From: Planctomycetota bacterium
GTDB taxonomy: Bacteria > Planctomycetota > B15-G4 > JADJEK01
Assembly: GCA_044225365.1 (NCBI GenBank)
Contig: JBGAIQ010000019.1
Span: 1 to 64,000 of the forward strand
Length of the DNA stretch: 64,000 bases
Direction: 5' to 3'
The position numbers and the translations under genes were made by a program. Of the stretch, positions 37,514 to 55,721 are shown piece after piece; position 1 is the first letter of the stretch, and each line of letters opens with the position of its first letter. The notes under the pieces are model-generated. The model did not search any database. It had not been told where the DNA came from and saw nothing but the letters and a program-made list of their open reading frames with translations.

Positions 37514-39589
37514 ATGACGACGACGATCACGAGAGACCGGCTGCGACGAAAGGCGTCCCCGGCTCTGCTGTTCCTCTTCACTCTTGCGAGCGCCGCGACG
37601 GCCGAGGATCGCCATCCACTCACGATCCACGACATGCTCGCGATGCAGCGCGTGGGGGACGTCGCCGTGTCGGCGGGCGGCACCAAACTCGCGTTCACCG
37701 TGCGCACGACGGACGTCGCCGCGAACACGGGTCGCTACGACGTGTGGCTCGTCGATGCGAAGGAGGGCGGTCCGCGTCGCCTCACGTCGAACGTCGCGAA
37801 CGACACGTCCCCGCGTTTCTCGCGCGACGATCTCTCGATCTACTTCCTCTCGTCCCGCAGCGGGTCCTCGCAGATCTGGTCGCTGTCCCTCATGGGCGGC
37901 GAGCCGACGCAGATCACGGACCTGCCGCTCGACATCGACAACTTCCTCGTCTTCCCCGATGGCCGTCGATTCCTCGTCTCCATGGAGGTGTATCCCGACG
38001 CCAAGGACCTCGCCGAGACCGCGGCGCGCGATGAAGCGAAGGCGAAGTCCAAGATGAAGGCGAAGGTCTACGACTCGCTCCTGTTCCGCCATTGGGATCA
38101 GTGGGAGGACGGCAAGCGCAGCCATTGGTTCACGCTCGACGCCGTGACGGGGAAAGCGACCGACCTGATGGCGGGCATGCCTTGCGACGCTCCGAACAAA
38201 CCGTTCGGCGGTGCGGAAGAAGCGACGATCCGGAACGACGGCAAGACGGTCGTGTTCGCGACGACGAACATGGGTCGCGAGGCGGCGTGGTCGACGAACG
38301 TCGATCTCTACAGCGTTCCTTCCGACGGATCCGCGGCGCCGACCTGCCTCACCACCGACAACCCGGCGACCGACAATCTCCCGCAATTCTCACCCGACGG
38401 ACGTTTCCTCGCGTACGTCGCGATGAAGCGGCCCATGTACGAATCGGATCGTCAGGGGCTCATGATCCGCGAGGTCGAGAGCGGAAAGGTCCGTGAGATC
38501 GCGCCCAACTGGGATCGTTCCGCGAGCGGCTTCACGTGGAGCCGCGACGGAAAGACGCTCTACGCGACCGCCGATCACATCGGCAACACCGGCCTGTTCG
38601 CCGTCGACGTCGGAAGCGGCACGGTGAAGCCGCTCATCGAGAAGGGCGCCGCGGGCGGCCCGGTCGCGATCGAGGGCGGAGTTGCGTTCCTCTGGAACGA
38701 CATGAAGCACCCCGATGAGATCCACACGCTCGACGCCGCGGGGAATCGAAAGGTCCTGACCGCGATCAACGCACCGCTGCTCGAGAAGATCGCCTTTGGC
38801 GACTACGAGCAGTACTCGTTCAAGGGCGCGCACGACGACACGGTCTACGGCTACGTGATGAAGCCGTGGAACTACGAGAGCGGCAAGAAGTACCCCGTCG
38901 CGTTCTTGATCCACGGCGGCCCGCAGGGCTCGTTCTCGGATCACTTCCACTATCGTTGGAACGCCGAAGCGTTCGCGGGCCGCGGACTCGGCGTCGTGTT
39001 CGTCGACTTCCATGGGTCGACGGGATACGGCCAGGCCTTCTGCGACTCGATCCGCGGCGATTGGGGCGGCGCACCGTACGAGGACTTGATGAAGGGCCTC
39101 GACGCCGCGCTCGCGAAGTACTCGTTCCTCGATGGCTCGCGCGTCGCGGCGGCGGGCGCGAGCTACGGCGGTTACATGATCAACTGGATCGCGGGCCAGA
39201 CGGATCGCTTCAAGTGCCTCGTCTGCCACGACGGCAATCTCGACAACCGAATGGCCTACCTCGACACCGAGGAACTCTGGTTCGACGAATGGGAGCACCA
39301 CGGCACGCCGTGGGAGAATCCCGACGCGTTCAGCAAGCACAACCCGATCGACTTCATCAAGAACTGGAAGACTCCGACGCTCGTCCTGCACGGCGGCAAC
39401 GACTTCCGCGTCGTCGATACGCACGGCATGGCGACGTTCACGGCGCTGCAGCGCAAAGGGATTCCGTCGAAGTTCGTGTTCTTCCCGGACGAGAATCACT
39501 GGGTGCTGAAGCCGCAGAATTCGATCCTCTGGCACGACAGCGTGCTCGACTGGATCGATCAGTGGACCAAGTCGCCGCCCGCCAAGTGA
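37514..39589 (+). CDS. S9 family peptidase (dipeptidyl-peptidase V-like)
   Basis: Signal peptide, beta-propeller, IHGGPQG, GASYGG, DFRV, ENHWVLKPQN. Confidence 0.93.
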   Translation: MTTTITRDRLRRKASPALLFLFTLASAATAEDRHPLTIHDMLAMQRVGDVAVSAGGTKLAFTVRTTDVAANTGRYDVWLVDAKEGGPRRLTSNVANDTSPRFSRDDLSIYFLSSRSGSSQIWSLSLMGGEPTQITDLPLDIDNFLVFPDGRRFLVSMEVYPDAKDLAETAARDEAKAKSKMKAKVYDSLLFRHWDQWEDGKRSHWFTLDAVTGKATDLMAGMPCDAPNKPFGGAEEATIRNDGKTVVFATTNMGREAAWSTNVDLYSVPSDGSAAPTCLTTDNPATDNLPQFSPDGRFLAYVAMKRPMYESDRQGLMIREVESGKVREIAPNWDRSASGFTWSRDGKTLYATADHIGNTGLFAVDVGSGTVKPLIEKGAAGGPVAIEGGVAFLWNDMKHPDEIHTLDAAGNRKVLTAINAPLLEKIAFGDYEQYSFKGAHDDTVYGYVMKPWNYESGKKYPVAFLIHGGPQGSFSDHFHYRWNAEAFAGRGLGVVFVDFHGSTGYGQAFCDSIRGDWGGAPYEDLMKGLDAALAKYSFLDGSRVAAAGASYGGYMINWIAGQTDRFKCLVCHDGNLDNRMAYLDTEELWFDEWEHHGTPWENPDAFSKHNPIDFIKNWKTPTLVLHGGNDFRVVDTHGMATFTALQRKGIPSKFVFFPDENHWVLKPQNSILWHDSVLDWIDQWTKSPPAK

Positions 39590-40254
39590 CGGCGGATCCA
39601 GAAGCGCTTCAGTGTGCGGGGGCTGTCCTTCGGGAGTTCGCCGCGTCCATGCACGATCCGCGTGTTGTCGACGTAGAGGCTCTGGCCCGGCTCGAGTCGC
39701 ACGTCGATCCGCGGCGAGGATTCGATCGCGTCGGAGAATCTCCGAAAGGTCTCGCGAACCGCCGGGTCTTCGATCGGAGCGACGTTCCAAGCGGCGTAGT
39801 AGACCCGCGGCCCTCCGCTGTCACGCGAGAGCAGCGGGACGAGCGTCGCGTCGAGGCGGCCGTCGACGTCCGGGCAACGCATCGTGATCTGGCCGAGACG
39901 ATCGCGATCGTCGTCGCTCAGTGAGTCGAGGATCGGCCTGCTGTCGACGAGGCGCGTCGCGCCCCCGATCTCCGCCGCGCGGACGCAATACCACGCGATC
40001 CGATCGACGTAGTGCTGATCCGTATGCAGTCCGAGTTCGCGCGGCGAATGCGCGCCGCGCGGACTGTTGCCGAGCTTGATGTCCTCGATTCGCAGGACGC
40101 TACCCAGGCATCTCCCGAGGTGGTAGAACGACCCGACGCGAATCGGTTGCTCGAGCACGTGGAAGCCGCGAGATTCCAGATCCCGCTCGATCATGGCGAC
40201 CGCTGCGGCGCCATCGAACGGGACTTCGCGAGGAGTGTCGGTCGATGCGGACAT
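39559..40254 (-). CDS. TauD/TfdA family Fe(II)/2-oxoglutarate dioxygenase
   Basis: LHTD facial-triad motif, C...A..GG.T.LVD, DN.RI.HGR, R.L.R; start could extend to 40311. Confidence 0.82.
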   Translation of the reverse strand: MSASTDTPREVPFDGAAAVAMIERDLESRGFHVLEQPIRVGSFYHLGRCLGSVLRIEDIKLGNSPRGAHSPRELGLHTDQHYVDRIAWYCVRAAEIGGATRLVDSRPILDSLSDDDRDRLGQITMRCPDVDGRLDATLVPLLSRDSGGPRVYYAAWNVAPIEDPAVRETFRRFSDAIESSPRIDVRLEPGQSLYVDNTRIVHGRGELPKDSPRTLKRFWIRRHLAGGDLVH

Positions 40255-40345
40255 CACGATGTCGTATCCTCTCGGAATCTTCTCGCTTTCGTCGGCGACT
40301 CGGAGCGGCATTCGACATGACCAACGAACGGGGCAGCGAGCGCAA

Positions 40346-40852
40346 ATGAGCTACTCCACTCCATACCACGAACACGGCGTTCCCATCGACTCCGAGTTCT
40401 GTCGCGGCTCGAACACGGCGCGCAAGGCGCGACACGTTCTCGAGGATTCGCGCAGATTGCTGGGTTGCGACGAGGCCGCTCTCTGGGTGTTCAGCAAGGA
40501 CAACCAGAATCTCGTCGCCGCGCTGAATCACGGCAAGCACGAGAAGAGCGTCGAGGGACTCGAGGTCCAGATCCGCGGTTCGCTCGTCGGGCTCGTCGCA
40601 ATGACGGGCGAGGGCATCTGCGTAGGGCCCGATGCGAACTACAACCCGGAGGTCGCCCGCGCCCTCGACGTCAAGACGTACGCGATGGTCGCCGCCGCCG
40701 TCGTGGTCGACGACGAGATCTGTGGCGTGATCTCCGCGGTCAACCTGTACGGGACGACGGAGTCGATCTTCACCGTCGAGCACCTGCGTGCGGTGCAATG
40801 GGCGGCGTACGTCATGGGTCTCGTGCTCTCGGATTGCAAGAAGCGTGATTGA
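40346..40852 (+). CDS. Stand-alone GAF domain protein
   Basis: GSLVGLVAMTGEGI...MVAAAV......GVISAVN.....FT.EHL GAF pattern; stop overlaps the S8 gene start. Confidence 0.8.
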   Translation: MSYSTPYHEHGVPIDSEFCRGSNTARKARHVLEDSRRLLGCDEAALWVFSKDNQNLVAALNHGKHEKSVEGLEVQIRGSLVGLVAMTGEGICVGPDANYNPEVARALDVKTYAMVAAAVVVDDEICGVISAVNLYGTTESIFTVEHLRAVQWAAYVMGLVLSDCKKRD

Positions 40853-41636
40853 CGCGCCGCTCACCGACGACGAATTGACCGCCGCGACCGGCGAGGGAAT
40901 TCGGGTGCTCGTGATGGACTCCGGAATCGAGTCCGATCACCCGACGCTCGTCGGCCGCGAGATCCCGAACTTCGAGGTCCTGCCGTTCCCGATCGGCGCC
41001 GACGTCACGTATCGAGTCCAATCGGCGCCCGGCGGCGATGCGTTCGGGCACGGAACCGCCGTCGCTTCCCTGCTCGTCGCGCATGCGCCAGGCGTGAAGA
41101 TCGAGAGCTTGCGGATGCTCGACGCCGATCGTCAGGGCAGTTCCGAGCGCGTCCTCGCCGGGCTGCGCTGGGCGATCGAGCGGCGCTTCGACATCGTGAA
41201 CTGCAGCTTCGGCACCTTCGGTCCGTCGACGACCAAGTTCCTCGCCTCCTACAAACGAGTCGTCGACATCGCATTCTGTGAGAACGTGCTGCTCATCGGC
41301 GCGTGCTCGAACTCGGACCATCGACTGACGTCGCTCCCGGCCTCGTTCCCGACCGTGCTCTCGACCGATGCCGGACGGATCGAGGATTCGCCGCTGCCGA
41401 AGGTGAAGCGACGCAAGGGACAACTCGTCGAGTTCGTGACGCGCGGCGTCGACGTCTCGGTGTCCTGGAAGGATGGCAGTTCGCGCCTCGTAACGGGTAG
41501 CAGCTTCGCTGCCCCGCACCTCGCGGCGCTCGTCGCCCGCATCCGACAATTGCGACCGCATTGGAATGCTTGCGAGATGAAGGCGGAGTTGTACCGTCGA
41601 TCCGAGCCCGTCACGGCCGCGGACGACGCCGACTGA
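40845..41636 (+). CDS. Small S8 subtilisin-like serine protease (no signal or propeptide)
   Basis: Catalytic triad motifs VMDSGI, GHGTAVA, TGSSFAAPH. Confidence 0.88.
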   Translation: MIDAPLTDDELTAATGEGIRVLVMDSGIESDHPTLVGREIPNFEVLPFPIGADVTYRVQSAPGGDAFGHGTAVASLLVAHAPGVKIESLRMLDADRQGSSERVLAGLRWAIERRFDIVNCSFGTFGPSTTKFLASYKRVVDIAFCENVLLIGACSNSDHRLTSLPASFPTVLSTDAGRIEDSPLPKVKRRKGQLVEFVTRGVDVSVSWKDGSSRLVTGSSFAAPHLAALVARIRQLRPHWNACEMKAELYRRSEPVTAADDAD

Positions 41637-41711
41637 GGTCGCTGCGCGTGATGATCGAATTCGTTTCGATCGCGATTCAGGACCGATGGGGCGGGCAGGA
41701 GCGACCTCGAA

Positions 41712-42383
41712 GTGAGTGAAGCCGACGAATCGAAGAAGCCATCTCCATCGCTCGTACGCGCTCGCGGCGAGCCCTCGCTCGCAGAGTCCGCGCGCGAGTG
41801 GGATGCGTTCTTCACGAGCGGCAGGTATCGCGAGGAATGGCACCTCGATCAGGCGTCCCCCGAACTCATGTGCCTGCTCGCAGCGGGGATCGTCGTGCCG
41901 CCAGGGCGCGCGCTCGACCTGGGTTGTGGAGGTGGCACGGAGGCCGTGCATCTCGCGCAACAGGGTTTCACGGTGACGGCCCTCGACGTTTCGGGCGAGG
42001 CACTTGCGATGACTCGGCGGCTCGCGGCGCGGCGCGGCGTCAAGCTTGCAACGCTTCAGGCCTTCGTGCCGAGAACCGAGCTCCCCGACCAGTCCTTCGA
42101 CTTCATCAATGATCGCAGCTGCTTCCACGCCATCGAGCCGAGGCTCGAGGTGCTCACCGCCTACGCCGCGGAGATCCAGCGCATCCTGGTTCCGGGCGGC
42201 GTCCTGTTCATTCGCAGGTTCGGTCAGCCGCAGATCTCCCTCTCGACGTTCTCGTCCGTATTCTCAGAAGAAGCCGGATTCGATCTCGGGCGCGTTCAAG
42301 AGGTCCCCTTCCACGAACCTCATTTTCCCTCGCGAGTCGCCGTGATCCGGTGGCGGGGGAAGAGTGCGTCGCGAGCATCATGA
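41712..42383 (+). CDS. Class I SAM-dependent methyltransferase (TPMT/thiol-MT-like)
   Basis: W....SPEL, GRALDLGCGGG.EA..LA..GF.VTALDVS, FD.I.DRSCFH. Confidence 0.88.
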   Translation: MSEADESKKPSPSLVRARGEPSLAESAREWDAFFTSGRYREEWHLDQASPELMCLLAAGIVVPPGRALDLGCGGGTEAVHLAQQGFTVTALDVSGEALAMTRRLAARRGVKLATLQAFVPRTELPDQSFDFINDRSCFHAIEPRLEVLTAYAAEIQRILVPGGVLFIRRFGQPQISLSTFSSVFSEEAGFDLGRVQEVPFHEPHFPSRVAVIRWRGKSASRAS

Positions 42384-42396
42384 TGGAGGCAGTCGC

Positions 42397-43578
42397 ATGA
42401 GCATCGTCCTCGACCGTCGATCGTCGTCGCAGCCGCAATCGAACGATCCGCGAACCCTCCTTCCGCTCGAGGTGTTCTTCCAGAACATCCGCTACGTGAC
42501 GCTCAAGCTGACGAACGGCTGCAATCTGAAGTGCTCGTACTGCAACGTCGAGGCCGATTCGCCCACCACGCCGAAGATGAAGATCGAGACCTTCAAGAAG
42601 GTCGCGAAGCTCCTCATCGAGAACTCGAAGTTCCCGCAACTCGGACTCGAATTTCACGGCGGCGAGCCGATGCTCCTCCCCGATGCGTGGTACGAAGAAG
42701 CGGTCGGTTACGCGGGAGAACTCGCGAAGAAGCACGGCAAGTTCATTACGCATCCGCTGCAGACGAACGGCACGTTGCTCACGGAGGAACGCGCGAACAA
42801 GCTGATGTCGCTCGGAATCCAGATCGGCTTCTCGATCGACGGTCCGCCCGACATCAATGACAAGATGCGCGGCGCCGGCAAAGCCGTCGAGAAGGTGATT
42901 CGACGCATGAAGTCGCAGGGCCGCGGCTTCGGCTGCCTGCTCGTCCTGAACCGCTCGAACTGCAATCACATGTACCGGGTGATGGACTATTTCCGGGAGA
43001 TCGGGATCGAGAACTACCGGATCAACTTCCTGCAGCCGCAGGGTCGTGGCTTGACGCAGGATCTCCTGACGGCGGAGGAGATGTTCGCGGGTCTCAAGGG
43101 CATCTTCGATCACATGCTCGACACGAATTGCTCGGTGCTCGAGTCGACGACGCAGACGATGGTCCAGCGGTTCGCGATCGGTCGCAATCCGCAGCCGGCG
43201 CTCTCCTGCTGGGAATTCCAGTGTCAGGCCGGCCGCGTCTATTGCGCAATGAACGATCGCGGCGAACTCCACGCCTGCGGCACGGACATGCAGCACCATC
43301 GACTCGGTGACATCGACACGCCACTGAACCGCCCGCACGTGGAGGCGGTGCTGAAGAAGCTTCACCACAAGGACGAGTGGTACGTGCGCTGCTTCGACTG
43401 CAAGGCGCGGCGCATCTGTTCGATGTCGTGCCCGACGAGCGACCACAACGATCTCTTGTATCGCGAACGCGAGTGCGCGTACACCAAGATGATCTACCGC
43501 TACTACGCGGAGAACGAAGACAAGGTGCTGCAGCTCCATGCCCGGCTGCAGCAACTCCGCCCGAATGGGGCGATGTAA
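42397..43578 (+). CDS. Radical SAM/SPASM peptide maturase
   Basis: CNLKCSYC, FHGGEP, QTNG, SIDGP; SPASM Cys array C..C...C...CFDCx5Cx3Cx14C; RBS GGAGG. Confidence 0.93.
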   Translation: MSIVLDRRSSSQPQSNDPRTLLPLEVFFQNIRYVTLKLTNGCNLKCSYCNVEADSPTTPKMKIETFKKVAKLLIENSKFPQLGLEFHGGEPMLLPDAWYEEAVGYAGELAKKHGKFITHPLQTNGTLLTEERANKLMSLGIQIGFSIDGPPDINDKMRGAGKAVEKVIRRMKSQGRGFGCLLVLNRSNCNHMYRVMDYFREIGIENYRINFLQPQGRGLTQDLLTAEEMFAGLKGIFDHMLDTNCSVLESTTQTMVQRFAIGRNPQPALSCWEFQCQAGRVYCAMNDRGELHACGTDMQHHRLGDIDTPLNRPHVEAVLKKLHHKDEWYVRCFDCKARRICSMSCPTSDHNDLLYRERECAYTKMIYRYYAENEDKVLQLHARLQQLRPNGAM

Positions 43579-43641
43579 GCGCGGAATTCCGCGCCTACGA
43601 TGCGAGGGCAGAGGTACTACGTCCCAAAAAGGAGTTTGAAC

Positions 43642-44088
43642 ATGGCTATCGTCCGCAGTGAGGACGGCCGTTTCTTCGACGTCGACGACACGGAACTCGA
43701 CAAGCATGAGATCAAGCCGGAAGACCTCCCGACCGGATCGGTCTACGCCCGCCCGCAAGGTGGGCCCGGGATGGGCGGTCCCGGCGCCGGTGGACCCGGG
43801 ATGGGCGGCCCGCGCGGCGGCGGCGGTGGTCCGGTGCAACTCGTCATCAATCTCGGCGGCGGCGGTGGAATGGGCGGCGGTGCGCCGCAGATGGGCTCCG
43901 GCCCGCAGGCGTCGGGTCCGGTTCAGCGCGGTCAGGGCGGGCAACAGGCCGGCGCGCGCGGTGATGTCCAGGCTCACAATTGGTGCGGCATGCCGTGGCC
44001 GTGGGGCAACTGGCACAACTGGCACAATTGGAACAACTGGAACAACTGGATGAACTGCTGGAACAACTGCTGGCACAACTGCAGCTGA
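43642..44088 (+). CDS. RiPP precursor peptide with Trp/Asn/Cys-rich repetitive core
   Basis: Strong RBS AAGGAG; acidic leader, Gly/Pro linker, then DVQAH-NWCGMPWPWGNWHNWHNWNNWNNWMNCWNNCWHNCS; lies between the rSAM and DUF692 genes. Confidence 0.88.
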   Translation: MAIVRSEDGRFFDVDDTELDKHEIKPEDLPTGSVYARPQGGPGMGGPGAGGPGMGGPRGGGGGPVQLVINLGGGGGMGGGAPQMGSGPQASGPVQRGQGGQQAGARGDVQAHNWCGMPWPWGNWHNWHNWNNWNNWMNCWNNCWHNCS

Positions 44089-44096
44089 GATCCAGC

Positions 44097-44134
44097 GCGG
44101 GGTGCGCCCGGTCGAGCGACCGCGCGCACCCCGC
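44097..44134 (+). terminator. GC-rich stem-loop immediately after the precursor gene
   Basis: GCGGGGTGCGC-c-CGGTC gagc GACCG-c-GCGCACCCCGC; no U-tract. Confidence 0.65.
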
Positions 44135-44185
44135 TCACCTCGAATCCCTCGTCCGTCCAAATCGCCCGGCGCCGAAGAGGTCCTC

Positions 44186-44575
44186 ATGACTCGGGTCTAC
44201 TCTCTCGATGGTCGCGTCTTCGAACTCGACGAATCGATGCTCGCCAAGTCGCAGATGGCGGCCGAAAAGGTGAGTCGCCTGATCGACAAGGACACGTTGC
44301 CCGAGCCGCCGCCGGTCGGCGACTTCCCGCAACAGGGCATTCCGCCGCACATCCAGCAGATGCTCGCGCAAGGGGTCGAACTGCCGATCCCCGAGGAAGC
44401 GCGTCACCTGGTGCGTGCGCGCAGCTTCATGGACGGAACGATCGTCATCGACATCGACGTTCGAGCGCTTCCCGGTTCGTCGGCGTGCGGGGGTCCCGCC
44501 TGTGGGCCCGCTCCGCGCGATCCCGCGGGGCAAACGCGGCCGGGCGAATGCGACTCCGGGGCCCGTCCGGCATGA
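44186..44575 (+). CDS. Precursor-like protein sharing the leader motif
   Basis: RVYSLDGRVFELDESMLAK aligns with precursor IVRSEDGRFFDVDDTELDK; RBS GAGG; stop overlaps MNIO start (ATGA). Confidence 0.75.
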   Translation: MTRVYSLDGRVFELDESMLAKSQMAAEKVSRLIDKDTLPEPPPVGDFPQQGIPPHIQQMLAQGVELPIPEEARHLVRARSFMDGTIVIDIDVRALPGSSACGGPACGPAPRDPAGQTRPGECDSGARPA

Positions 44576-45711
44576 GGCCACGGCTTCCGGCGTACGGAGT
44601 GGGCATCGGCTACCGATACTGCATCCATCGCGAGATCTTGCGCTGCGCGCCGATGATCGATTTCCTCGAAGTCCCGTCGGAGGATTACGTCGAGGACGAT
44701 CGGCGAGCGCGATTCGATCCCGACGAATCCCTGCTGCGCGCCGCGGTCGAACGCTTCCCGTGCGTCGCGCACGGCACGGGTCTCTCGCTCGGCACTGCCG
44801 CGCCGCCGGATGAGAACTATCTGCAGCGGCTCGCGAACTTCGCCGAACGGACGCCGATCGGCGAGTATTCCGAGCACCTGTCGTTCATCCGCGGGATCGA
44901 TCACGAGGTCGATGCGTTCATGGCGCTCCCGTTCACCGACCTCGGCGTCGCGATCGCCGCCGAGAACGTGATGCGTTCCGCTCGAGCTCTCGGCGTCCCC
45001 TTCCTCGTCGAGAACGTGAGCTACTACTTCGCGCTGCCGGAGTCGACGTACAGTGAGGCCGAGTTCATCTCGCGGGTCGCGCAGGCTGCTGATTGCGGCA
45101 TCCTGCTGGATGTCGCGAACCTCCACATCAACGCCACGAATCACCATTACGACCCCGAGGCCTTCATCCGCGCCTTGCCGAAGGAGCGCGTGCTCCATTC
45201 GCATTTCTGCGGCGCGAGCCGAGGTCCGGATCGGTTCCTCTACGACACGCACTTCGAAGTGACGATGCCCGCCGTCTGGCGCATCCTCGATACGGCGTTG
45301 CGGGAGACGGCGCTGCGTGCGCTCGTGTTCGAACGCGATCAGCGGTTCGTTCCGTTCCAGGAGCCGATGGAAGAGATCTTCCAGGCGCGCGAGTTGTTCC
45401 GCCGGCATCGCAAGACCAAGCCATTGCTGCCCGTCACGACGCACTCGCCGGCTCCCGCGGGTGGCGACGATGCGGTCTACTCTCGGGAGTTGCGAAAGCT
45501 CCAGGACGTGCTGTGCCGGTTGTTGACCGACGAGGATCTCGGGCGCGCGGTCGAGCGCGAGGGTGAAACCGCGCTCGTCCACACCGGGATCGACCGCGAT
45601 TCGCGGCGCATCCTCGCCGCGATTCCGGGCGTCGCGCGCGAGCGCATCGGCCGGCGGCTGCGCGAGCGGCTGCGAAAGGGTGGGCGCTCCAACGTGGAAT
45701 CGTTGCCATGA
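44572..45711 (+). CDS. DUF692 family multinuclear non-heme iron oxidative enzyme (MNIO) with C-terminal extension
   Basis: GVGIGYR, DFLEV, HG.GLSLG, SEHLSF, LVENVSYY, LLDVANL.IN..NH, H, DTH, ERD. Confidence 0.92.
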   Translation: MRPRLPAYGVGIGYRYCIHREILRCAPMIDFLEVPSEDYVEDDRRARFDPDESLLRAAVERFPCVAHGTGLSLGTAAPPDENYLQRLANFAERTPIGEYSEHLSFIRGIDHEVDAFMALPFTDLGVAIAAENVMRSARALGVPFLVENVSYYFALPESTYSEAEFISRVAQAADCGILLDVANLHINATNHHYDPEAFIRALPKERVLHSHFCGASRGPDRFLYDTHFEVTMPAVWRILDTALRETALRALVFERDQRFVPFQEPMEEIFQARELFRRHRKTKPLLPVTTHSPAPAGGDDAVYSRELRKLQDVLCRLLTDEDLGRAVEREGETALVHTGIDRDSRRILAAIPGVARERIGRRLRERLRKGGRSNVESLP

Positions 45712-47600
45712 CCGAATCGAGAGATCCGGGGCCGCCGCCGGGCATGAAGGACGCGGGACCTCCGAAGGGAGTTGCGGATAGTGGTCCGCCGCCGGGGATG
45801 AAGGACGAACCCCCGGCCGATGGCGGTCCACCGCCCGGGATGATCGACGCCCCGCCGAAGCTGGATCGGGAGACGATCGCGTTCTTCGTACCCTACGTGC
45901 GAAAGCAGCGCGGACGTCTCCTCGCGATCCTCGGCATGCTCCTGTTCTCCGCGCTGATGCCGGTCGCGATGAGCTTCCTGCCGACGAAGCTCGCTCAGAA
46001 TTGGCATCCGGGCGGCGAACACGAAGTCATGAAGTGGCTCGTGGCATTCCTGGCGCTCTCGGTCGTCGCGCTCACGCTCGCGCCCGTCCAGGGTTATCTG
46101 ACGGCGCGCGTCGCGCAGGACCTCGCGTGTGATCTGAAGGGCGCGATCTTCCGCAAGGTCGGCGCGATGTCGAAGACCGCGATGGCGTTCCGGTCGGTCG
46201 GATCGCTCGCGCATCGCAGCTCCGGCGATGTCGCTCATCTCCAGGAGTTCCTCGCCCGCTTCGTGCCCGATGCCGTCGCGAACGTGATCCAGCTCGTGTT
46301 CGTCGTCCTCGCGATGCTCTGGCTGCAGCCGGTCATCGCGATCGTCGGGCTCGTCCTCGTTCCGACGATCTGGTTCATCATGGACCGCTTCAACGCGAAG
46401 GTTCGACTGCTCGCACGCAGTTCGCAGAAACAGAGCGAGTCGTCGCTCACGCGGCTGATCGAGGGCGTCGCGGGGTACATCGATCTCGTCGCCGCCGGAC
46501 GCTTCCCCAAGGCCGCGGACGAATACGTGAGCGTGCTCGACGATCTGCGGCGCACGGCGATCAAGATGACGCTGACGAGTTCGATCGCCGCGCTCATTCC
46601 GAGCATCGCGTTCATGGCGATCACGAACGGCTACTACTTCGTCGCCGCGGCCGACGAGAAAATGCTCGCCGCGACGACGGTCGGATTCGGCCAGGTGATG
46701 ACCTTCGTTTCGCTGATCAACGTCGTGCGCATGCCGATCATGACGCTCGCTCGGTTCTTCACCGAGACCGCGATCGCCGCTCCGAGCTTCCACGAAGTGA
46801 AGAAGCTCCTCGAGTCGCCCGAGGTGTCCGCGCCGACGCACGGCGTGAAGATCGACGGCAGCGCGATCGAGTTCAAGGGCGTGGTATTCAGTTACGGCCC
46901 AGGCTTCCCGCCCGTGCTCGATGGCGTCTCGTTCCGGATTCCCGAAGGGAGCTTCACAGCGATCGTCGGCGAGACCGGGTCCGGCAAGACGACGCTCTTC
47001 CACATGCTGCTGCGGCTCCTCGAGCCGACGAGCGGAGAGATCCGCCTCGGCAACTCGACGCTCGGCGCGATCGCCCTCGAGGATTTGCGGTCGTACGTCG
47101 GATTCATTCCGCAGTCGCCTTTCCTGTTCGATGCGACGATTCGTGAGAACGTCGCGATCGCGCTCGCCGAGAACGAAGTCGATCAGGAGCGATTGCTGCG
47201 GGCCGTGAAGCTCGCGCGGCTGGAGCCCGTCGTCGAGAAGCGCAAATCCCAGGGCGGACTCGATGCCAAGGTCGGCGCCGCCGGCGCGAGTCTCTCGGGC
47301 GGAGAACGGCAGCGCGTCGCGCTCGCGCGCGTCTTCCTGCGCGATCCCAAGATCATCGTCTGCGACGAATACACGGCGAACATCGACAACGCGACGGCGC
47401 GGATCATCCAGGAGTCGATCGCACGCGAATTCGCCGGGCGCACGCGCGTCGTCATCACGCATCAGCTCTACACGATCCGCGGGGCGGATCAGATCCTGGT
47501 GCTCGACCGCGGGCGAATCGTCGATCGGGGCACGCACGAGGAACTCGTCGCGCGCGGCGGGCTGTATCGTGAGATGTGGGAAGTCCAGCGGCTCGCGTGA
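45708..47600 (+). CDS. ABC exporter (fused TMD-NBD)
   Basis: TM domain, Walker A GETGSGKT, LSGGERQR, Walker B IIVCDE, H-loop; no C39 domain; start overlaps MNIO stop. Confidence 0.93.
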   Translation: MTESRDPGPPPGMKDAGPPKGVADSGPPPGMKDEPPADGGPPPGMIDAPPKLDRETIAFFVPYVRKQRGRLLAILGMLLFSALMPVAMSFLPTKLAQNWHPGGEHEVMKWLVAFLALSVVALTLAPVQGYLTARVAQDLACDLKGAIFRKVGAMSKTAMAFRSVGSLAHRSSGDVAHLQEFLARFVPDAVANVIQLVFVVLAMLWLQPVIAIVGLVLVPTIWFIMDRFNAKVRLLARSSQKQSESSLTRLIEGVAGYIDLVAAGRFPKAADEYVSVLDDLRRTAIKMTLTSSIAALIPSIAFMAITNGYYFVAAADEKMLAATTVGFGQVMTFVSLINVVRMPIMTLARFFTETAIAAPSFHEVKKLLESPEVSAPTHGVKIDGSAIEFKGVVFSYGPGFPPVLDGVSFRIPEGSFTAIVGETGSGKTTLFHMLLRLLEPTSGEIRLGNSTLGAIALEDLRSYVGFIPQSPFLFDATIRENVAIALAENEVDQERLLRAVKLARLEPVVEKRKSQGGLDAKVGAAGASLSGGERQRVALARVFLRDPKIIVCDEYTANIDNATARIIQESIAREFAGRTRVVITHQLYTIRGADQILVLDRGRIVDRGTHEELVARGGLYREMWEVQRLA

Positions 47601-47648: not shown

Positions 47649-48698
47649 GTGACCTCGCAATCGGTCCACGGCCGCGGCGCGGCCGACAATCCCGACAACC
47701 GATTCGTCCGCCTCACGGTCGAGCCCGATCCGGAGTGCAGCCAAGAAGAGCGGGCGATCGTCACCGAGTACTTCGTCGATGCCTCGAAGACGATCCTGTC
47801 GCGCAACGACAGCCCCGACATCGGATTCGAGTTCAGCGTCAACCCTTATCGGGGCTGCGAGCACGGATGCATCTACTGCTACGCGCGGCCGACGCACGAA
47901 TACCTCGGCCTCTCCGCGGGGCTCGAGTTCGAGAGCAAGATCTTCGTGAAGGAGAAGGCGCCCGAACTCCTGCGCGCGGAACTGATGAACGAGAGGTGGC
48001 GGCCGCAGGCGATCAACTTCTCGGGTGTGACCGATTGTTATCAACCGCTCGAGCGACGGCTGCGCCTCACGCGGCGCTGTCTCGAAGTGCTGATCGAGTT
48101 CAAGAACCCGGCGGCCGTCATCACCAAGAGCGCGCTGATCGAGCGCGACATCGACGTGCTGGCCGAACTCGCGGCGATCGGCGGAGCGCTCGTGGGCATC
48201 ACGATCACGACGCTCGATGAGTCGCTCGCTTCCAAGCTCGAGCCGCGCGCCGCTTCCCCGCGGCGGCGAATCGGCGCGATCGCAGCACTGGCAAACGCGG
48301 GCGTCCCGGTGCACGTGATGACGGCGCCGATCGTGCCCGGGCTCACCGATCACGAGATCCCGGCGATCCTGAAGGCCGCTGCAGAAGCCGGTGCGCGGTC
48401 AGCGGGATGGACTCTTCTGCGGCTCCCGCACGCCGTGAACCCGTTGTTCGAGGACTGGCTCACGCGGTACGCGCCGGGTCAGAAGGAGAAGGTGCTGCGA
48501 CGCATCGAGGACGCGCGCGGCGGCGAGCGGCACGACTCCAGATTCCATGTTCGGATGCGCGGTGAAGGACGCATCGCCGAGGAAGTTGCCGACATGTTCG
48601 CCTTCGCGCGCGACCGCGCGGGCCTCGCGCCGGATGCTCCGAAACTGTCCGCGACGCACTTTCGTCGACCTGGCCCGCAACAGGGCAAGCTCTTCTGA
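47649..48698 (+). CDS. PA0069/Rv2578c family radical SAM protein (SplB-like, DNA repair-associated)
   Basis: GRGA..NP.NRF, SVNPYRGCEHGCIYCYARPTHEYLG, TDCYQPLE; ends QGKLF. Confidence 0.9.
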   Translation: MTSQSVHGRGAADNPDNRFVRLTVEPDPECSQEERAIVTEYFVDASKTILSRNDSPDIGFEFSVNPYRGCEHGCIYCYARPTHEYLGLSAGLEFESKIFVKEKAPELLRAELMNERWRPQAINFSGVTDCYQPLERRLRLTRRCLEVLIEFKNPAAVITKSALIERDIDVLAELAAIGGALVGITITTLDESLASKLEPRAASPRRRIGAIAALANAGVPVHVMTAPIVPGLTDHEIPAILKAAAEAGARSAGWTLLRLPHAVNPLFEDWLTRYAPGQKEKVLRRIEDARGGERHDSRFHVRMRGEGRIAEEVADMFAFARDRAGLAPDAPKLSATHFRRPGPQQGKLF

Positions 48699-54085: not shown

Positions 54086-54091
54086 GGTGTC

Positions 54092-55564
54092 TCACGACAA
54101 CGGCGGTAGCTGGCCTGCGCGGACGAAGGCAGCTTCGAACAGGAACAACGCGAACAGAGCGGGGATCCAGGCGATCATTGGTGCGAAGAGCGCGAGAGGG
54201 ATCGCGAGGAGGGAGAGCGCGATTCCGGTCGAGTAGGCCGGGATCGATCCAAAGCGCACTGCGGTGAGGAATCCAGCGGCCTGCCGTGCGTTCGCCGTGG
54301 CGTGTTTCTTGATCGGCTCCAGGATCGCGAGGAGTACGTGCGCGACGCTTGCCACGATCGCCACGATCGCGAGCGGGCGCGGCGAGTCCGAGAACGGCAA
54401 CAGCGCAAACGCTCCCGCGAGCACGGCCTGCGCGACGAGATGTGGCAGCACGAGCGAGCTCTGCCACAGATCGCGCCCTTCGCACTGCTTGAGCAGGAAC
54501 GCGGTGTAGGCGGCGGCGGCGAAGCCGAACAAGACGTTGGGGATCCGCAATAGGTCCGCGACGCCGTCGAAGCCGAGGAATCGCAGACCGAGGATTGCCG
54601 ATGTCGTCATCGAGAAGGCGATCAGGATGTAGGCACCCTTCACGAGCCAGCTCGTCCGATTGCCGCGAGTCAGGAGCGTGAGGAACTTCCATGGCCGCTT
54701 CAGATCCTCGACCAGGATCGCCGTCGTGATCGTGGTGAAGACGAGCGCGAGGATCTCGGGAGCGTACCGCCCCTTGTTCGCGAGGATTCCGAACGTGGCG
54801 ACGAGCGGCGCGAGCAGCGCGGCGCCGCCCGCGATTCCCTTGGTGAGGAAGTAGAGCGAGACCGCGGCTCCCCATTCGACCTTGTGCCCGGTGTCGAGCA
54901 CCGTGGTCACGTTCGGCAGCGTCGGCACGCTCTCGGGCCACGCTTCCGGTTTGCTCTTCGGCTTGTCGCTCCACAAGTAGATCGGCGGTCGCGCGGCGGC
55001 GCCCGGCGCGAGGATCGAGGGCTCGTGGCCGACGTAATGCACGTTCGGGCCCGTGTTCTGCTCGGGCCGTCGCACCTCGGTCGCGAGCTCGCGAGTCATG
55101 ATCGAGATCTTCGAGTTCGGATCGTGCAGGTCACCCGGGATGATCGCTTGTTCGGGACACACGATGACGCATGCCGGCTCGAGACCCTGCTCGAGGCGAT
55201 GGTTGCAGAAGTGGCACTTCTCGACGGCGCCCTTGTCCTCGTTCAGGTAGATCGCGTCGTAGGGGCAGGCCTGCATGCACGCGCGGCAACCGATGCAGAC
55301 GTCGCGATCGATGTCGACGACGCCGTTCTTCTCCTTGGAGAGCGCGGTCACCGGGCAGATCGTGACGCAGGGCGCGTTCGTGCAGTGGTTGCACCGCAGC
55401 ACGGCGAAGTGTCGCTTCACCGTCGGAAACGTTCCCGTCTCCTGGTACTTGACCCAGGTGCGGAAATCGCCGACCGGGACGTCGTTCTCGGACTTGCAGG
55501 CGACGGTGCACGCGTGGCAGCCGATGCATCGCCGATGATCGATCAAAAAGCCGTACTGGGTCAC
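54092..55564 (-). CDS. 4Fe-4S dicluster protein fused to NrfD/PsrC-type membrane anchor
   Basis: CIGCHAC..AC, CNHC..APC..ICP, CIGCRAC.QACP, KCHFC...PAC..VCP, then W...VSLY...DL.RP..F....SWL TM domain. Confidence 0.92.
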   Translation of the reverse strand: MTQYGFLIDHRRCIGCHACTVACKSENDVPVGDFRTWVKYQETGTFPTVKRHFAVLRCNHCTNAPCVTICPVTALSKEKNGVVDIDRDVCIGCRACMQACPYDAIYLNEDKGAVEKCHFCNHRLEQGLEPACVIVCPEQAIIPGDLHDPNSKISIMTRELATEVRRPEQNTGPNVHYVGHEPSILAPGAAARPPIYLWSDKPKSKPEAWPESVPTLPNVTTVLDTGHKVEWGAAVSLYFLTKGIAGGAALLAPLVATFGILANKGRYAPEILALVFTTITTAILVEDLKRPWKFLTLLTRGNRTSWLVKGAYILIAFSMTTSAILGLRFLGFDGVADLLRIPNVLFGFAAAAYTAFLLKQCEGRDLWQSSLVLPHLVAQAVLAGAFALLPFSDSPRPLAIVAIVASVAHVLLAILEPIKKHATANARQAAGFLTAVRFGSIPAYSTGIALSLLAIPLALFAPMIAWIPALFALFLFEAAFVRAGQLPPLS

Positions 55565-55721
55565 GAACGGTTCCTCGCTTCGAAGGTGTGAGAAGCTACC
55601 CGAGGAACGGTTCGGAACGCTCGAGATTCAGCCCTGGAGCGGCCGCGCGTTTCGGATCCAGAAGGGGCGCGGTATCCTCCGCCAGGACGCTTCGGTTTCC
55701 CCGTGCCCTGCGGAGTCCTCG

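What the first reader, a model, noticed from the sequence alone, without database searches (positions are those of the whole stretch)
39559..47600. Candidate novel RiPP cluster combining a radical SAM/SPASM enzyme, a DUF692/MNIO, a methyltransferase, an S8 protease and an exporter around a Trp/Asn/Cys repeat precursor
Seen: a co-directional, tightly spaced or overlapping run of GAF, S8 protease, SAM-MT, rSAM/SPASM, precursor, leader-like ORF, DUF692 and ABC exporter, with a divergent TauD-like dioxygenase. Known: SPASM enzymes of the XyeB/GrrM/FxsB type make three-residue cyclophanes on aromatic-x-x motifs, and MNIOs (MbnB, TglH, ChrH, bufferin BufB) mostly modify Cys. Inference: one precursor carries substrates for both enzymes, giving a polycyclophane peptide with MNIO-modified Cys. 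I do not recognise this enzyme set and core from any characterised RiPP class.
Basis: partly seen in the sequence, partly recalled or inferred. Interest (0 to 1): 0.96.

Follow-up and report, generated by a model that had tools for sequence, protein, structure and literature searches.

The report
Uncharacterised rSAM plus MNIO peptide cluster
This is a real and conserved gene cluster for a ribosomal peptide whose tail is built of tryptophan-x-asparagine repeats with interspersed cysteines, matured by a radical SAM enzyme and an iron oxidase that match no characterised subfamily, so it probably makes an undescribed kind of cross-linked peptide.

Summary
Window 39559-47600 holds a divergent TauD-like dioxygenase and a co-directional run: GAF, S8 protease, TPMT/TehB-like methyltransferase, radical SAM/SPASM, a 148-aa precursor, a 129-aa leader-like ORF2, an MNIO and an ABC exporter. 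The precursor's 36-residue core has 8 W-x-N triads and 4 Cys.

The rSAM and the MNIO score far below every curated NCBIfam cutoff. The precursor has no Pfam or NCBIfam family.

The cluster is conserved. Four alphaproteobacterial genomes carry rSAM, 2-3 precursors and MNIO; the three longer loci also show ABC, TauD, GAF and S8. All cores there are (W-R/Q/N-N-C/H)n. Two metagenome loci show rSAM, precursor and ABC without an MNIO in the sequence available.

Best reading: the rSAM makes Trp-to-Asn three-residue cyclophanes, as in triceptides. The MNIO oxidises the neighbouring Cys of the same peptide, S8 removes the leader after GDVQAH, and the ABC pump exports the product.

The chemistry is inferred, not shown. 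A Cys-Asn thioether, and ORF2 as a second MNIO substrate, remain open. Five literature searches found no description. Verdict: new variant of a known kind, interest about 0.62.

The parts
39559..40311 (-). TauD/TfdA-family Fe(II)/2-oxoglutarate dioxygenase, divergent from the operon. The true start is probably a little downstream of the listed ATG.
   Evidence: Pfam PF02668 at 5.9e-17. NCBIfam shows only weak hits to beta-hydroxylases (VioC, GntD), clavaminate synthase and TmpA, all far below cutoff. It is 32% identical (E 6e-32) to the TauD-like gene of the alphaproteobacterial cluster L024. TauD homologues also lie in L033 and L035.
40193..40852 (+). GAF-domain protein (start uncertain), paired with the S8 protease.
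   Evidence: Pfam GAF at 8.2e-10. A GAF gene sits directly upstream of S8 in L014, L020, L024, L033 and L035.
40788..41636 (+). Short cytoplasmic subtilisin-like S8 protease, the presumed leader peptidase (start uncertain).
   Evidence: Pfam Peptidase_S8 at 4.4e-20. The best NCBIfam hits are mycosin and QhpE, below their cutoffs. The DSG, GHGT and GSSFA motifs are present in the translation. Homologues of 30-51% identity lie in L011, L014, L020 and L024.
41712..42383 (+). SAM-dependent methyltransferase of TPMT/TehB type. It is an accessory gene seen only in the window's version of the cluster.
   Evidence: Pfam Methyltransf_11 at 1.5e-16, TPMT 46.6 bits (cutoff 26) and TehB 36.6 bits (cutoff 20.4). 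tblastn found no match in any other locus.
42364..43578 (+). Radical SAM/SPASM peptide maturase of an uncharacterised family. Only about 45 residues precede the CxxxCxxC motif.
   Evidence: Pfam Radical_SAM at 3.4e-17. All 70 NCBIfam matches are below cutoff (25 were shown); the best are PapB 115/340, anSME 105/349, DynA 105/450 and QhpD 104/453. C53/C57/C60 and eight C-terminal Cys are invariant in 17 family members. 183 relatives score at E<=1e-30.
43642..44088 (+). Precursor peptide preA (148 aa): a conserved leader, Gly-rich linkers, a QLVINLGG block, the GDVQAH junction and the core.
   Evidence: AAGGAG lies 7 nt upstream of the ATG. GC by codon position is 0.66/0.57/0.81. There are 8 relatives among 5.8 billion proteins. 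No Pfam or NCBIfam family matches.
43978..44085 (+). Core peptide (36 aa) NWCGMPWPWGNWHNWHNWNNWNNWMNCWNNCWHNCS, with 8 W-x-N triads and 4 Cys.
   Evidence: W136, N138, W140 and N142 are invariant in the 8-row precursor alignment, and no Cys is invariant.
44186..44575 (+). ORF2 (129 aa), a paralogue-like second leader-bearing peptide with a Cys-Gly-Pro tail. Its stop overlaps the MNIO start.
   Evidence: The ATGA overlap is at 44572. GC by codon position is 0.72/0.52/0.78. Its N-terminus is 29% identical to preA's over 63 aligned positions (E 0.005). It has a small family of its own: P0165, P0166, P0167 and P0170, out of 6 hits in 1.84 billion representatives.
44572..45711 (+). MNIO (DUF692) enzyme, 379 aa: a TIM barrel plus a clade-specific four-helix C-terminal module (residues 305-372, nt 45484-45687).
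   Evidence: PF05114 at 2.4e-69. HvfB 193.5/360 and BufB 188.5/310 are both below cutoff. The AF2 model has pLDDT 89.8. Foldseek's best matches are 3bww, TglH and MbnB. There are 28 full-length relatives of 37-73% identity.
45708..47600 (+). ABC exporter (one transmembrane domain and one ATPase domain) with a Pro/Gly-rich N-terminal extension and no C39 peptidase domain.
   Evidence: Pfam finds ABC_membrane and ABC_tran only. The best NCBIfam hit is MsbA at 308 bits against a 602 cutoff. ABC genes follow the precursor in L013 and L014.

Best explanation
This is a RiPP biosynthetic operon of an uncharacterised type. It makes a heavily cross-linked peptide from the 36-residue C-terminal core of a 148-aa precursor.

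Shown here:
- the gene set;
- the precursor family, with a conserved leader (MAI[VL]RSxDG[KR]F[FY]D...) and W-x-N(-C/H) repeat cores;
- its conserved linkage to one rSAM/SPASM family, and in a subset to one MNIO clade, across at least two phyla.

Inferred:
1. The rSAM abstracts a hydrogen from the Asn C-beta of each W-x-N triad and joins it to the indole of the Trp two residues upstream. This gives up to eight contiguous three-residue cyclophanes, the chemistry of triceptides.
2. The MNIO is nearest to the BufB/HvfB group but lacks a DUF2063 partner gene. It oxidises the Cys that follow the last triads of the same precursor (N-C pairs), most simply into thiooxazole-like heterocycles.
3. The TauD-like dioxygenase adds a hydroxyl group. 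In this lineage the TPMT/TehB-like methyltransferase methylates a sulfur or other nucleophile.
4. The S8 protease cuts after the conserved GDVQAH junction, possibly gated by its GAF partner. The ABC pump then exports the product.

The role of the product is unknown. A metal-binding function is the best lead.
For: Gene identities come; operon coupling (ATGA overlaps).

Precursor family and motif:
- The precursor family is shown.
- W and N of the triads are invariant in the alignment while Cys is not.
- W-x-N counts per core: window 8, P0002 9, P0003 8, P0004 8, L014 7, and 4 each in P0005, P0007, P0008, L012, L013, L015 and L020.
- Trp(i)-to-C-beta-Asn(i+2) cyclophanes made by SPASM rSAMs are documented. 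XncB links Trp C6 to Asn or Arg, and OscB links Trp C7 to Asn or Asp (PMC11002830 section 16; the definition of the motif is in PMC11499958).
- The rSAM has a complete radical SAM and SPASM cysteine set, invariant in 17 of 17 family members.

Co-occurrence:
- Loci with an rSAM of this family (51-59% identical by tblastn, or E<=1e-80 against the A4 profile): the window plus 8 others (L013, L014, L020, L024, L033, L034, L035, L036).
- All 7 of the 8 others whose sequence reaches past the 3' end of the rSAM gene have a family precursor next to it.
- The MNIO follows the precursor in 5 of the 7 loci where that stretch is visible: the window, L024, L033, L034 and L035.
- In the alphaproteobacterial loci the gene directly upstream of the MNIO is a W-R-N-C precursor.

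MNIO clade:
- The cluster-linked MNIOs are 38-59% identical to each other, against 25-30% to the canonical MNIO paralogue of the same genome. That paralogue has a DUF2063 partner.
They place precursor and MNIO relatives together in two (11814, 418123). This is an inference, not verified.
- BufB converts Cys to 5-thiooxazoles that bind copper (PMC11626156, abstract and passages).

Metal lead:
- The satellite precursor L012 lies about 700 bp from a DUF1326 gene followed by a PF09948 copper-chaperone gene.
- The L015 precursor lies among RND, OEP and CusB-like efflux genes.
- L017 has the same leader with a His/Cys-only core.
Against: - No enzyme here reaches the cutoff of any characterised subfamily. 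The rSAM's best NCBIfam scores are to thioether or other SPASM enzymes (PapB 115, anSME 105, QhpD 104, DynA 105). The triceptide families score lower (AmcB 77, YhhB 72, GrrM/OscB 68, WgkB 62).
- Its nearest solved structures are CteB, anSME and ChlB, with no discrimination between them.
- Every C-W-x-N stretch also fits a Cys-to-Asn thioether.
- Cys is present in the cores of L013 and L014, where no MNIO is seen. L016 has an MNIO right after a Cys-free core. That MNIO and its rSAM are distant, at 23% and 27% identity.
- In the window itself the gene coupled to the MNIO is ORF2, not preA.
- The nature of the MNIO's C-terminal module is unresolved.
- No leader-binding (RRE) domain was identified in any cluster protein.
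- The metal lead rests on three satellite loci only.
Confidence: 0.5

Rival explanations
1. The rSAM is a thioether synthase. It abstracts the Asn C-beta hydrogen but couples it to a Cys sulfur (C-W-x-N or N-C), as QhpD, PapB and NxxcB do with Asp, Glu or Asn. The Trp residues are then structural, or are modified by another enzyme.
For: - The best NCBIfam score is PapB (114.9 bits, aligned over positions 2-320 of the 330-position profile), and QhpD scores 104 bits.
- The S8 protease's second-best hit is QhpE. So rSAM, S8 and ABC resemble the quinohaemoprotein amine dehydrogenase maturation set (operon content recalled, not from a call).
- The nearest solved structure is the thioether-forming CteB.
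- Most cores contain C-W-x-N.
Against: - All these scores are a third or less of the family cutoffs and differ little from DynA's, a Trp cross-linker.
- W-x-N triads far outnumber Cys: 8 to 4 in the window and 4 to 2 in L012.
- W and N are invariant in the alignment while Cys positions are not. In P0004 one Cys is replaced by Ala.
Confidence: 0.22
2. There are two substrates. In the window's lineage the MNIO acts mainly on ORF2, a second precursor with the same type of leader and a Cys-Gly-Pro tail. The rSAM acts on preA, so the cluster yields two different products.
For: - ORF2 is a real gene (GC pattern) and is translationally coupled to the MNIO.
- The precursor gene usually precedes the MNIO gene in MNIO clusters (PMC12452194 sections 17-18).
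- ORF2 relatives P0165 and P0166 end in SCGPTACGPDACG and ECSTNSCGPNPGACDG, and the window's ends in ACGGPACGP...GECDS.
Against: - The alphaproteobacterial clusters have the same MNIO clade and no ORF2-like gene. There the MNIO follows W-R-N-C precursors.
- An ORF2-like peptide without any Cys occurs in L014, where no MNIO is seen.
- P0167 and P0170 lack the Cys tail.
Confidence: 0.2
3. The MNIO does not touch Cys. It hydroxylates aromatic residues, as PbsC does in biphenomycin-like peptides, or it processes the C-terminus. The Cys residues form disulfides or bind metal as they are.
For: - MNIOs hydroxylate Phe before an rSAM cross-link in the pbs pathway (PMC12257519, abstract and introduction).
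- L016 pairs an MNIO with a Cys-free aromatic core, DPYWFYYWWWTNY.
- Cys is equally present in cores of loci without a visible MNIO.
Against: - The MNIO's closest curated families are the Cys-modifying HvfB and BufB (about 190 bits), well above ApyH (112), ChrH (38) and MbnB (23).
- L016's MNIO is only 23-26% identical to the clade.
Confidence: 0.15
4. The adjacency is fortuitous, and the MNIO, TauD or methyltransferase belong to unrelated pathways.
For: The methyltransferase is found only in the window. The MNIO is not seen in L013 or L014.
Against: - TauD, MNIO, GAF, S8 and ABC recur with the rSAM and precursor in another phylum.
- The ATGA overlaps couple ORF2, MNIO and ABC.
Confidence: 0.03

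Closest known systems
Triceptides (three-residue cyclophane RiPPs; 3-CyFE rSAM/SPASM enzymes such as OscB/GrrM and XncB)
   Same: - A SPASM radical SAM enzyme sits next to a precursor with repeated aromatic-x-x motifs.
- W-x-N is exactly a motif on which OscB and XncB make Trp-to-C-beta cross-links (PMC11002830).
- The rSAM has no long N-terminal domain.
   Different: - The rSAM is outside all curated 3-CyFE families: GrrM/OscB 68/310, YhhB 72/445, AmcB 77/425 and WgkB 62/650.
- The leader family is different and unannotated.
- The triads are contiguous, up to 8-9 per core.
- Cys or His follows many of the triads.
- The cluster adds an MNIO, TauD, a GAF-S8 pair and an ABC pump.
Bufferins and HvfB-type MNIO systems
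   Same: - The MNIO's closest curated families are HvfB and BufB, and the closest structure is 3bww.
- The precursors contain Cys.
- There are hints of a link to metals in satellite loci.
- An ECF sigma gene lies in one relative, L020.
   Different: - The scores are below the equivalog cutoffs.
- There is no Sec signal peptide on the precursor (sequence).
- There is no DUF2063 partner in the cluster, although the same genome has a canonical MNIO-DUF2063 pair elsewhere.
- The MNIO carries a four-helix C-terminal module.
- Export is by an ABC pump.
Biphenomycin-like peptides (pbs cluster)
   Same: An MNIO and a radical SAM enzyme act one after the other on an aromatic-rich motif of a single precursor, and a protease then releases the product (PMC12257519).
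   Different: - There the rSAM is B12-dependent, not SPASM.
- The motif is FHAFRF.
- The MNIO has a separate RRE partner, PbsD.
- The hosts are Actinomycetota and Bacillota.
- Pfam finds no B12-binding domain here.
Ranthipeptide (PapB) and QhpD/QhpE maturation systems
   Same: These give the best or near-best NCBIfam scores for the rSAM (PapB, QhpD) and for the S8 protease (QhpE). The substrate is rich in Cys.
   Different: All scores are far below the cutoffs (115/340, 104/453, 74/165). The acceptor residues here would be Asn rather than Asp or Glu. No dehydrogenase subunits are present.

Membership tests
Triceptide / 3-CyFE systems | Radical SAM enzyme with CxxxCxxC and a full SPASM cysteine set | tested here: met
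   C53/C57/C60 plus C282, C287, C305, C343, C346, C352, C356 and C371 are invariant in 17 of 17 aligned family members. Pfam Radical_SAM scores 3.4e-17.
Triceptide / 3-CyFE systems | Precursor with aromatic(1)-X(2)-X(3) motifs | tested here: met
   The window's core has 8 W-x-N triads. Of the 16 family cores tabulated, 11 have 4-9 triads, 4 have 1-2 (P0009, L011, L016) or none (L017), and the window has 8.
Triceptide / 3-CyFE systems | rSAM belongs to a characterised cyclophane synthase family (GrrM/OscB TIGR04261, YhhB NF041707, AmcB NF041718, WgkB NF050035) | tested here: not met
   68.3/310, 72.1/445, 77.4/425 and 61.9/650 bits.
Triceptide / 3-CyFE systems | Aromatic carbon to C-beta cross-link (-2 Da per motif) | not testable with these tools
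   This needs co-expression followed by MS/MS and NMR.
MNIO (DUF692) superfamily | PF05114 domain above the gathering score, and a TIM-barrel fold like MbnB and TglH | tested here: met
   234 bits against a cutoff of 25. The AF2 model has pLDDT 89.8. Foldseek matches 3bww at 2.7e-18, TglH 8hi7_B at 9.8e-16 and MbnB 7dz9 at 3.6e-12.
MNIO (DUF692) superfamily | Conserved metal-ligand residues | tested here: inconclusive
   H67, H102, E147, D180, N183, H211, D225, H227 and E254 are invariant in 21 clade members. That these are the iron ligands rests on my recollection of MbnB and TglH, not on a call.
Bufferin (BufB/BufC) or HvfB systems | MNIO above the equivalog cutoff | tested here: not met
   BufB 188.5/310 and HvfB 193.5/360.
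Bufferin (BufB/BufC) or HvfB systems | DUF2063 partner gene next to the MNIO | tested here: not met
   No DUF2063 hit in any cluster ORF. The module after the barrel gives no significant match: best 6lk7 at E 1.0, with no MbnC, TglI or DUF2063 structure listed. The genome's other MNIO does have a DUF2063 partner.
Bufferin (BufB/BufC) or HvfB systems | Sec signal peptide on the precursor | tested here: not met
   The N-terminus MAIVRSEDGRFFDVDD is charged and has no hydrophobic stretch. No signal-peptide predictor was run.
Ranthipeptide (PapB family) | rSAM above the NF047865 cutoff | tested here: not met
   114.9/340.
Biphenomycin-like (pbs) clusters | B12-dependent rSAM and an FHAFRF-type motif | tested here: not met
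   Pfam finds no cobalamin-binding domain, and the core has no such motif.

The most novel reading that the evidence does not exclude
This is a new RiPP class: ladder-like peptides in which contiguous Trp-Asn cyclophanes made by a new SPASM clade alternate with MNIO-derived Cys heterocycles. The MNIO works without a DUF2063 partner and carries its own helical module. Maturation is controlled by a GAF-S8 protease pair that responds to cyclic nucleotides, and the exported product binds copper or another metal.
Probability: 0.25. Interest if true: 0.85.

Novelty: new variant of a known kind. Interest (0 to 1): 0.62.

Why it matters
- It would add a precursor family, with its own leader and a W-x-N(-C/H) repeat core, that is unannotated in Pfam and NCBIfam.
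- It would add a SPASM clade of at least 183 mostly metagenomic members with no assigned chemistry.
- It would add an MNIO clade that appears to do without the usual partner protein.
- A SPASM rSAM and an MNIO acting on one aromatic/Cys-rich core has, as far as my searches reach, only one loose precedent: biphenomycins, which use a B12-rSAM.
- Up to eight back-to-back three-residue cyclophanes would be an unusually rigid scaffold.
- The recurring GAF-S8 pair suggests cyclic-nucleotide control of leader removal, which is not a known feature of RiPP pathways. In Alphaproteobacteria the pair comes with an adenylate/guanylate cyclase and a cNMP-binding protein.
- Satellite precursors lie next to copper-chaperone and RND efflux genes, which gives a testable functional lead.
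- The cluster is small (about 8 kb) and suited to heterologous expression.

Tried and rejected
- **MNIO with ORF2 (complex prediction):** verdict 'no answer', score 0.02 against a mark of 0.32. The partner's own fold was uncertain and no controls were run. It counts neither for nor against binding.
- **Is the MNIO's C-terminal module a fused partner (DUF2063, TglI or MbnC-like)?** The clade profile against PDB sequences gave only a weak hit to 6lk7 (E 1). The module folded alone (2-row alignment, pLDDT 72) gave 6lk7 again (E 1.0, TM about 0.5) and no partner protein. Pfam at E<=10 gave nothing meaningful. The idea is left unsupported.
- **Assigning the rSAM's chemistry by homology:** the NCBIfam ranking and PDB sequence search do not discriminate between thioether and cyclophane enzymes. 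I had no sequences of characterised 3-CyFEs to build a tree and typed none from memory.
- **Promoter and terminator scan:** no promoter-like site, and 5 terminator-like sites against 5.0 expected. Uninformative.
- **ESM Atlas with the precursor:** only unnamed clusters at 0.86 and 0.79, below the level that counts.
- **S9 peptidase (37514-39589) as part of the cluster:** rejected, because it has no homologue in any related locus. **PA0069-family rSAM (47649-48698):** rejected, because it is a housekeeping family scoring above its cutoff (460.7/360).
- **Row dropped:** P0006 was left out of alignment A1 because its C-terminal half does not follow the family. It looks like a shifted reading frame on an 805-base contig.
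- **Limits of the loci:** L013 (2.9 kb), L014 (7.2 kb), L020 (5.3 kb), L034 (3.7 kb) and L036 (4.0 kb) end inside or just beside the cluster. A gene not seen there is not shown to be absent.
- **Supplements closed:** the supplements of the MNIO landscape paper (PMC12452194) and of the triceptide landscape papers were closed. Their SSN tables might already list these enzymes as unnamed clusters.

Full report
**1. Observation**

The window is about 65% GC, so long spurious ORFs are common. Third-position GC picks out one co-directional gene run on the + strand between 40.2 and 47.6 kb, plus one divergent gene.

Pfam and NCBIfam identify these genes:
- a TauD/TfdA dioxygenase, 39559-40311 (-)
- a GAF protein, 40193-40852
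- a short S8 protease, 40788-41636
- a TPMT/TehB-like SAM methyltransferase, 41712-42383
- a radical SAM enzyme, 42364-43578
- an MNIO (PF05114, 2.4e-69), 44572-45711
- a half-size ABC exporter without a peptidase domain, 45708-47600

Two small genes lie between the rSAM and the MNIO. The precursor preA (43642-44088, 148 aa) has an AAGGAG seven bases upstream of its ATG. ORF2 (44186-44575, 129 aa) has a stop that overlaps the MNIO start in an ATGA. The MNIO stop overlaps the ABC start in the same way.

After a GDVQAH junction, preA ends in NWCGMPWPWGNWHNWHNWNNWNNWMNCWNNCWHNCS, which has eight W-x-N triads and four Cys.

**2. The enzymes belong to no characterised subfamily**

The rSAM has the CxxxCxxC motif and a complete SPASM cysteine set, invariant in 17 of 17 aligned relatives. 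All of its 70 NCBIfam matches are far below cutoff (25 were shown):

| Family | Bits | Cutoff |
|---|---|---|
| PapB | 115 | 340 |
| anSME | 105 | 349 |
| DynA | 105 | 450 |
| QhpD | 104 | 453 |
| AmcB (cyclophane) | 77 | 425 |
| YhhB (cyclophane) | 72 | 445 |
| GrrM/OscB (cyclophane) | 68 | 310 |
| WgkB (cyclophane) | 62 | 650 |

Its nearest solved structures by sequence are CteB, anSME and ChlB, all with weak, N-terminal-only matches.

The MNIO is nearest to HvfB (193.5/360) and BufB (188.5/310). An AlphaFold model built on 21 clade members is confident (pLDDT 89.8). It shows the TIM barrel followed by a four-helix module at residues 305-372. Foldseek matches the barrel to 3bww, TglH and MbnB.

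The helical module is kept in 28 relatives of 37-73% identity. It is missing from the six more distant MNIOs listed, which cover only 72-75% of the query. Folded alone, it has no significant structural match.

The cluster has no DUF2063, MbnC or TglI-like partner gene. The same genome has a canonical MNIO-DUF2063 pair on another contig.

**3. The precursor family**

A search of 5.8 billion proteins found eight relatives of preA. Scans of genome and metagenome collections, followed by targeted genome searches, added loci L011-L017, L020, L024 and L033-L035.

All members share these parts:
- an N-terminal leader, MAI[VL]RSxDG[KR]F[FY][DE]..D..L, with (I/V)xP[ED]D(L/V) after it
- Gly/Pro-rich linkers
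- a short hydrophobic block (QLVINLGG, QVVIQIHG)
- a DV..[HRY]-type junction
- an aromatic/Asn/Cys/His/Arg-rich tail

Examples of tails:

| Source | Tail |
|---|---|
| L020 | GRYCGWHNCWRNCWRNCWRNYYRY |
| L033 | PYWGWWRNCWQNCWRNCWRNCY |
| L014 | HDWCRPSWQNCWQNWHNWHNWNNWNNSWHNHHRG |
| L012 | GWGWRNHWRNHWRNCWRNCY |

In the 8-row alignment the W and N of the last triads are invariant and no Cys is. P0004 has Ala where its close relatives have Cys. The family has no Pfam or NCBIfam model.

**4. Synteny**

The rSAM family has at least 183 members at E<=1e-30, mostly 51-60% identical. Where they are named at all they are called only 'radical SAM protein'.

It is sporadic in genome collections:
- No close relative in 40 genomes of the window's order; the best match is 29% identical.
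- 2 of 400 other genomes sampled from its phylum at E<=1e-60.
- 0 of 401 in the phylum of the Verrucomicrobiales MAG at E<=1e-80.
- 5 of 401 in the order of a Methyloligellaceae MAG.

I examined the window plus 8 other loci with this rSAM family. All 7 of those 8 whose sequence extends past the 3' end of the rSAM gene have a family precursor beside it. L036 ends inside the rSAM.

GAF and S8 form an adjacent pair in the window, L014, L020, L024, L033 and L035.

The MNIO follows the precursor(s) in the window, L024, L033, L034 and L035. It is not seen between the precursor and ABC in L013 and L014, both short contigs.

A TauD-like gene is present in the window, L024, L033 and L035. The window's and L024's are 32% identical (E 6e-32).

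The order in L033 and L035 is:
ABC, cNMP-binding protein, TauD, TPR-sensor adenylate/guanylate cyclase, rSAM, 2-3 precursors, MNIO, GAF, S8, and one more precursor.

L024 differs: TauD is divergent, there are two precursors and no trailing one, and I did not scan it for the cyclase. L034 shows only rSAM, two precursors and a cut MNIO.

The cluster-linked MNIOs of the two phyla and of the Verrucomicrobiales locus L011 are 38-59% identical to each other. They are only 25-30% identical to the window genome's canonical MNIO. This suggests a single recruitment that then moved with the precursor.

- rSAM with MNIO in four: 418123, 17445, 8902, 11622
- precursor with MNIO in two: 11814, 418123

The methyltransferase occurs only in the window. 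In L020 its place is taken by an ECF sigma factor and an unknown gene.

**5. ORF2**

ORF2 has a coding GC pattern. Its N-terminus resembles the preA leader (29% identity over 63 aligned positions, E 0.005).

A full HMMER scan of 1.84 billion representatives found six hits. Four are short relatives. They share MTRVxSLDGRVFE, LPDAPPPG and PVPxEARGLVRARxFxDGxIVIDIDV. P0165, P0166 and the window's copy end in Cys-Gly-Pro motifs. P0167 and P0170 do not.

L014 has an ORF2-like peptide without Cys and without a visible MNIO. The alphaproteobacterial clusters have none.

So ORF2 is a lineage-specific paralogue of the precursor. It may be a second MNIO substrate, but it cannot be the conserved one.

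**6. Mechanism**

Triceptides are defined by an aromatic(i)-to-C-beta(i+2) cross-link on aromatic-X-X motifs made by SPASM rSAMs (PMC11499958, introduction). XncB and OscB do this on Trp-x-Asn (PMC11002830, section 16).

The invariant, repeated and often contiguous W-x-N unit next to a SPASM rSAM is therefore best read as a poly-cyclophane substrate. I put this at about 55%.

The alternative is that the Asn C-beta radical is captured by a Cys sulfur, as in the QhpD, PapB and NxxcB type of reaction. It cannot be excluded from sequence, and the enzyme's weak best hits lean that way. I put it at about 22%.

For the MNIO, the nearest curated families convert Cys to thiooxazoles that bind copper (PMC11626156). 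Nearly every core in MNIO-bearing loci has N-C pairs. I favour Cys oxidation on the same precursor at about 45%. ORF2 as the substrate, or non-Cys chemistry as in the biphenomycin MNIO PbsC (PMC12257519), are the live rivals.

The remaining roles are inferred from family and position only:
- S8 cleavage at the conserved junction
- ABC export
- hydroxylation by TauD
- methylation by the TPMT/TehB-like enzyme

**7. Function**

Function is unknown. There are three hints toward metals:
- A satellite precursor in the Methyloligellaceae MAG lies about 700 bp from a DUF1326 gene followed by a PF09948 'copper chaperone' gene.
- L015's His-rich member lies among RND, OEP and CusB-like efflux genes.
- L017 carries the leader with a pure His/Cys core.

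These are leads only.

**8. Novelty**

Five full-text searches and a literal motif search found no description of this precursor family, or of a SPASM rSAM paired with an MNIO on such cores. The motif search returned only DNA cre-box matches for one term and zero occurrences for the other three.

What I read:
- sections 17 and 18 of the MNIO landscape paper, plus a term search of its main text, which found no rSAM-linked group
- passages of the biphenomycin, bufferin, triceptide and minviopeptin papers

Supplements were closed. The triceptide landscape papers (Sugiyama 2022, Nguyen 2020) and the rSAM atlas (Clark and Seyedsayamdost 2022) were seen only as references.

The parts are known kinds: rSAM/SPASM, MNIO, S8 and ABC. 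The precursor family, both enzyme clades and their combination are uncharacterised. My verdict is 'new variant of a known kind'.

Noticed in passing
L033:7239-9227 (+), L035:10796-12814 (-), L024:10662-11096 (-); probably also L024:14876-16549 (+): The alphaproteobacterial versions of the cluster carry a TPR-sensor adenylate/guanylate cyclase and a small cNMP-binding protein beside the conserved GAF-S8 pair. This suggests cyclic-nucleotide control of maturation. The L024 cyclase is judged from its sequence only and was not scanned.
   Followed up: partly
G000:C77:9824-10606 (locus L026): The window's genome has a second MNIO (PF05114, 355 bits) followed by a DUF2063 gene. This is the canonical bufferin-like arrangement and contrasts with the partner-less MNIO of the window.
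   Followed up: partly
L012:10001-10207, with L012:7911-9287: A 68-aa satellite member of the precursor family (core GWGWRNHWRNHWRNCWRNCY) lies 1.3 Mb from the full cluster of the same MAG. It is about 700 bp from a DUF1326 gene followed by a PF09948 'copper chaperone' gene.
   Followed up: partly
L015:10001-10312, with L015:3344-8570 and 11641-12318: A family member with a His-rich core (GHHGHGGWGGGGCWNNCWYNQWHNHAWHNHGGW) sits among an RND pump, an outer-membrane efflux protein and a CusB/HlyD-like gene. No rSAM or MNIO lies within 10 kb.
   Followed up: partly
L017:419-781: The same leader is joined to a core made only of His and Cys (HGHGGHHCHHCHRCHRCHNCHHCHHCFF). The contig is too short (1.3 kb) to show the enzymes.
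   Followed up: no
L024:4250-5122 (+): A 290-aa ORF just outside the alphaproteobacterial cluster ends in CVWANCCGRWGCWRWCQWW and has an internal hydrophobic stretch. It has no Pfam family, and whether it is a real gene is unknown.
   Followed up: no
window 37514-39589 (+): An S9 prolyl-oligopeptidase-like protein with a signal-peptide-like N-terminus ends where the TauD gene ends. It has no homologue in any related locus, so I did not count it as part of the cluster. S9 proteases do process some cyclophane RiPPs (PMC12957482, search listing only).
   Followed up: partly
window 47649-48698 (+): A PA0069-family radical SAM protein (460.7 bits against a cutoff of 360) lies directly after the ABC gene. 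It is a housekeeping family and not part of the cluster.
   Followed up: yes
window 51305-55627 (-): A molybdopterin oxidoreductase lies beside a 4Fe-4S dicluster/NrfD fusion protein, a respiratory-type module unrelated to the finding.
   Followed up: no
L021 (G129:C321:4399-7037): Two tandem rSAM genes, 32-34% identical to the window's, are followed by an ABC gene. No leader of this family was found, so this may be a sister system with another precursor type.
   Followed up: no
window 45708-45890; L014:6094-6400; L011:1100-1297 (-): The cluster's ABC exporters start with Pro/Gly-rich repeats (GPPPGM-like) of about 50-60 residues before the membrane domain. Their role is unknown.
   Followed up: no
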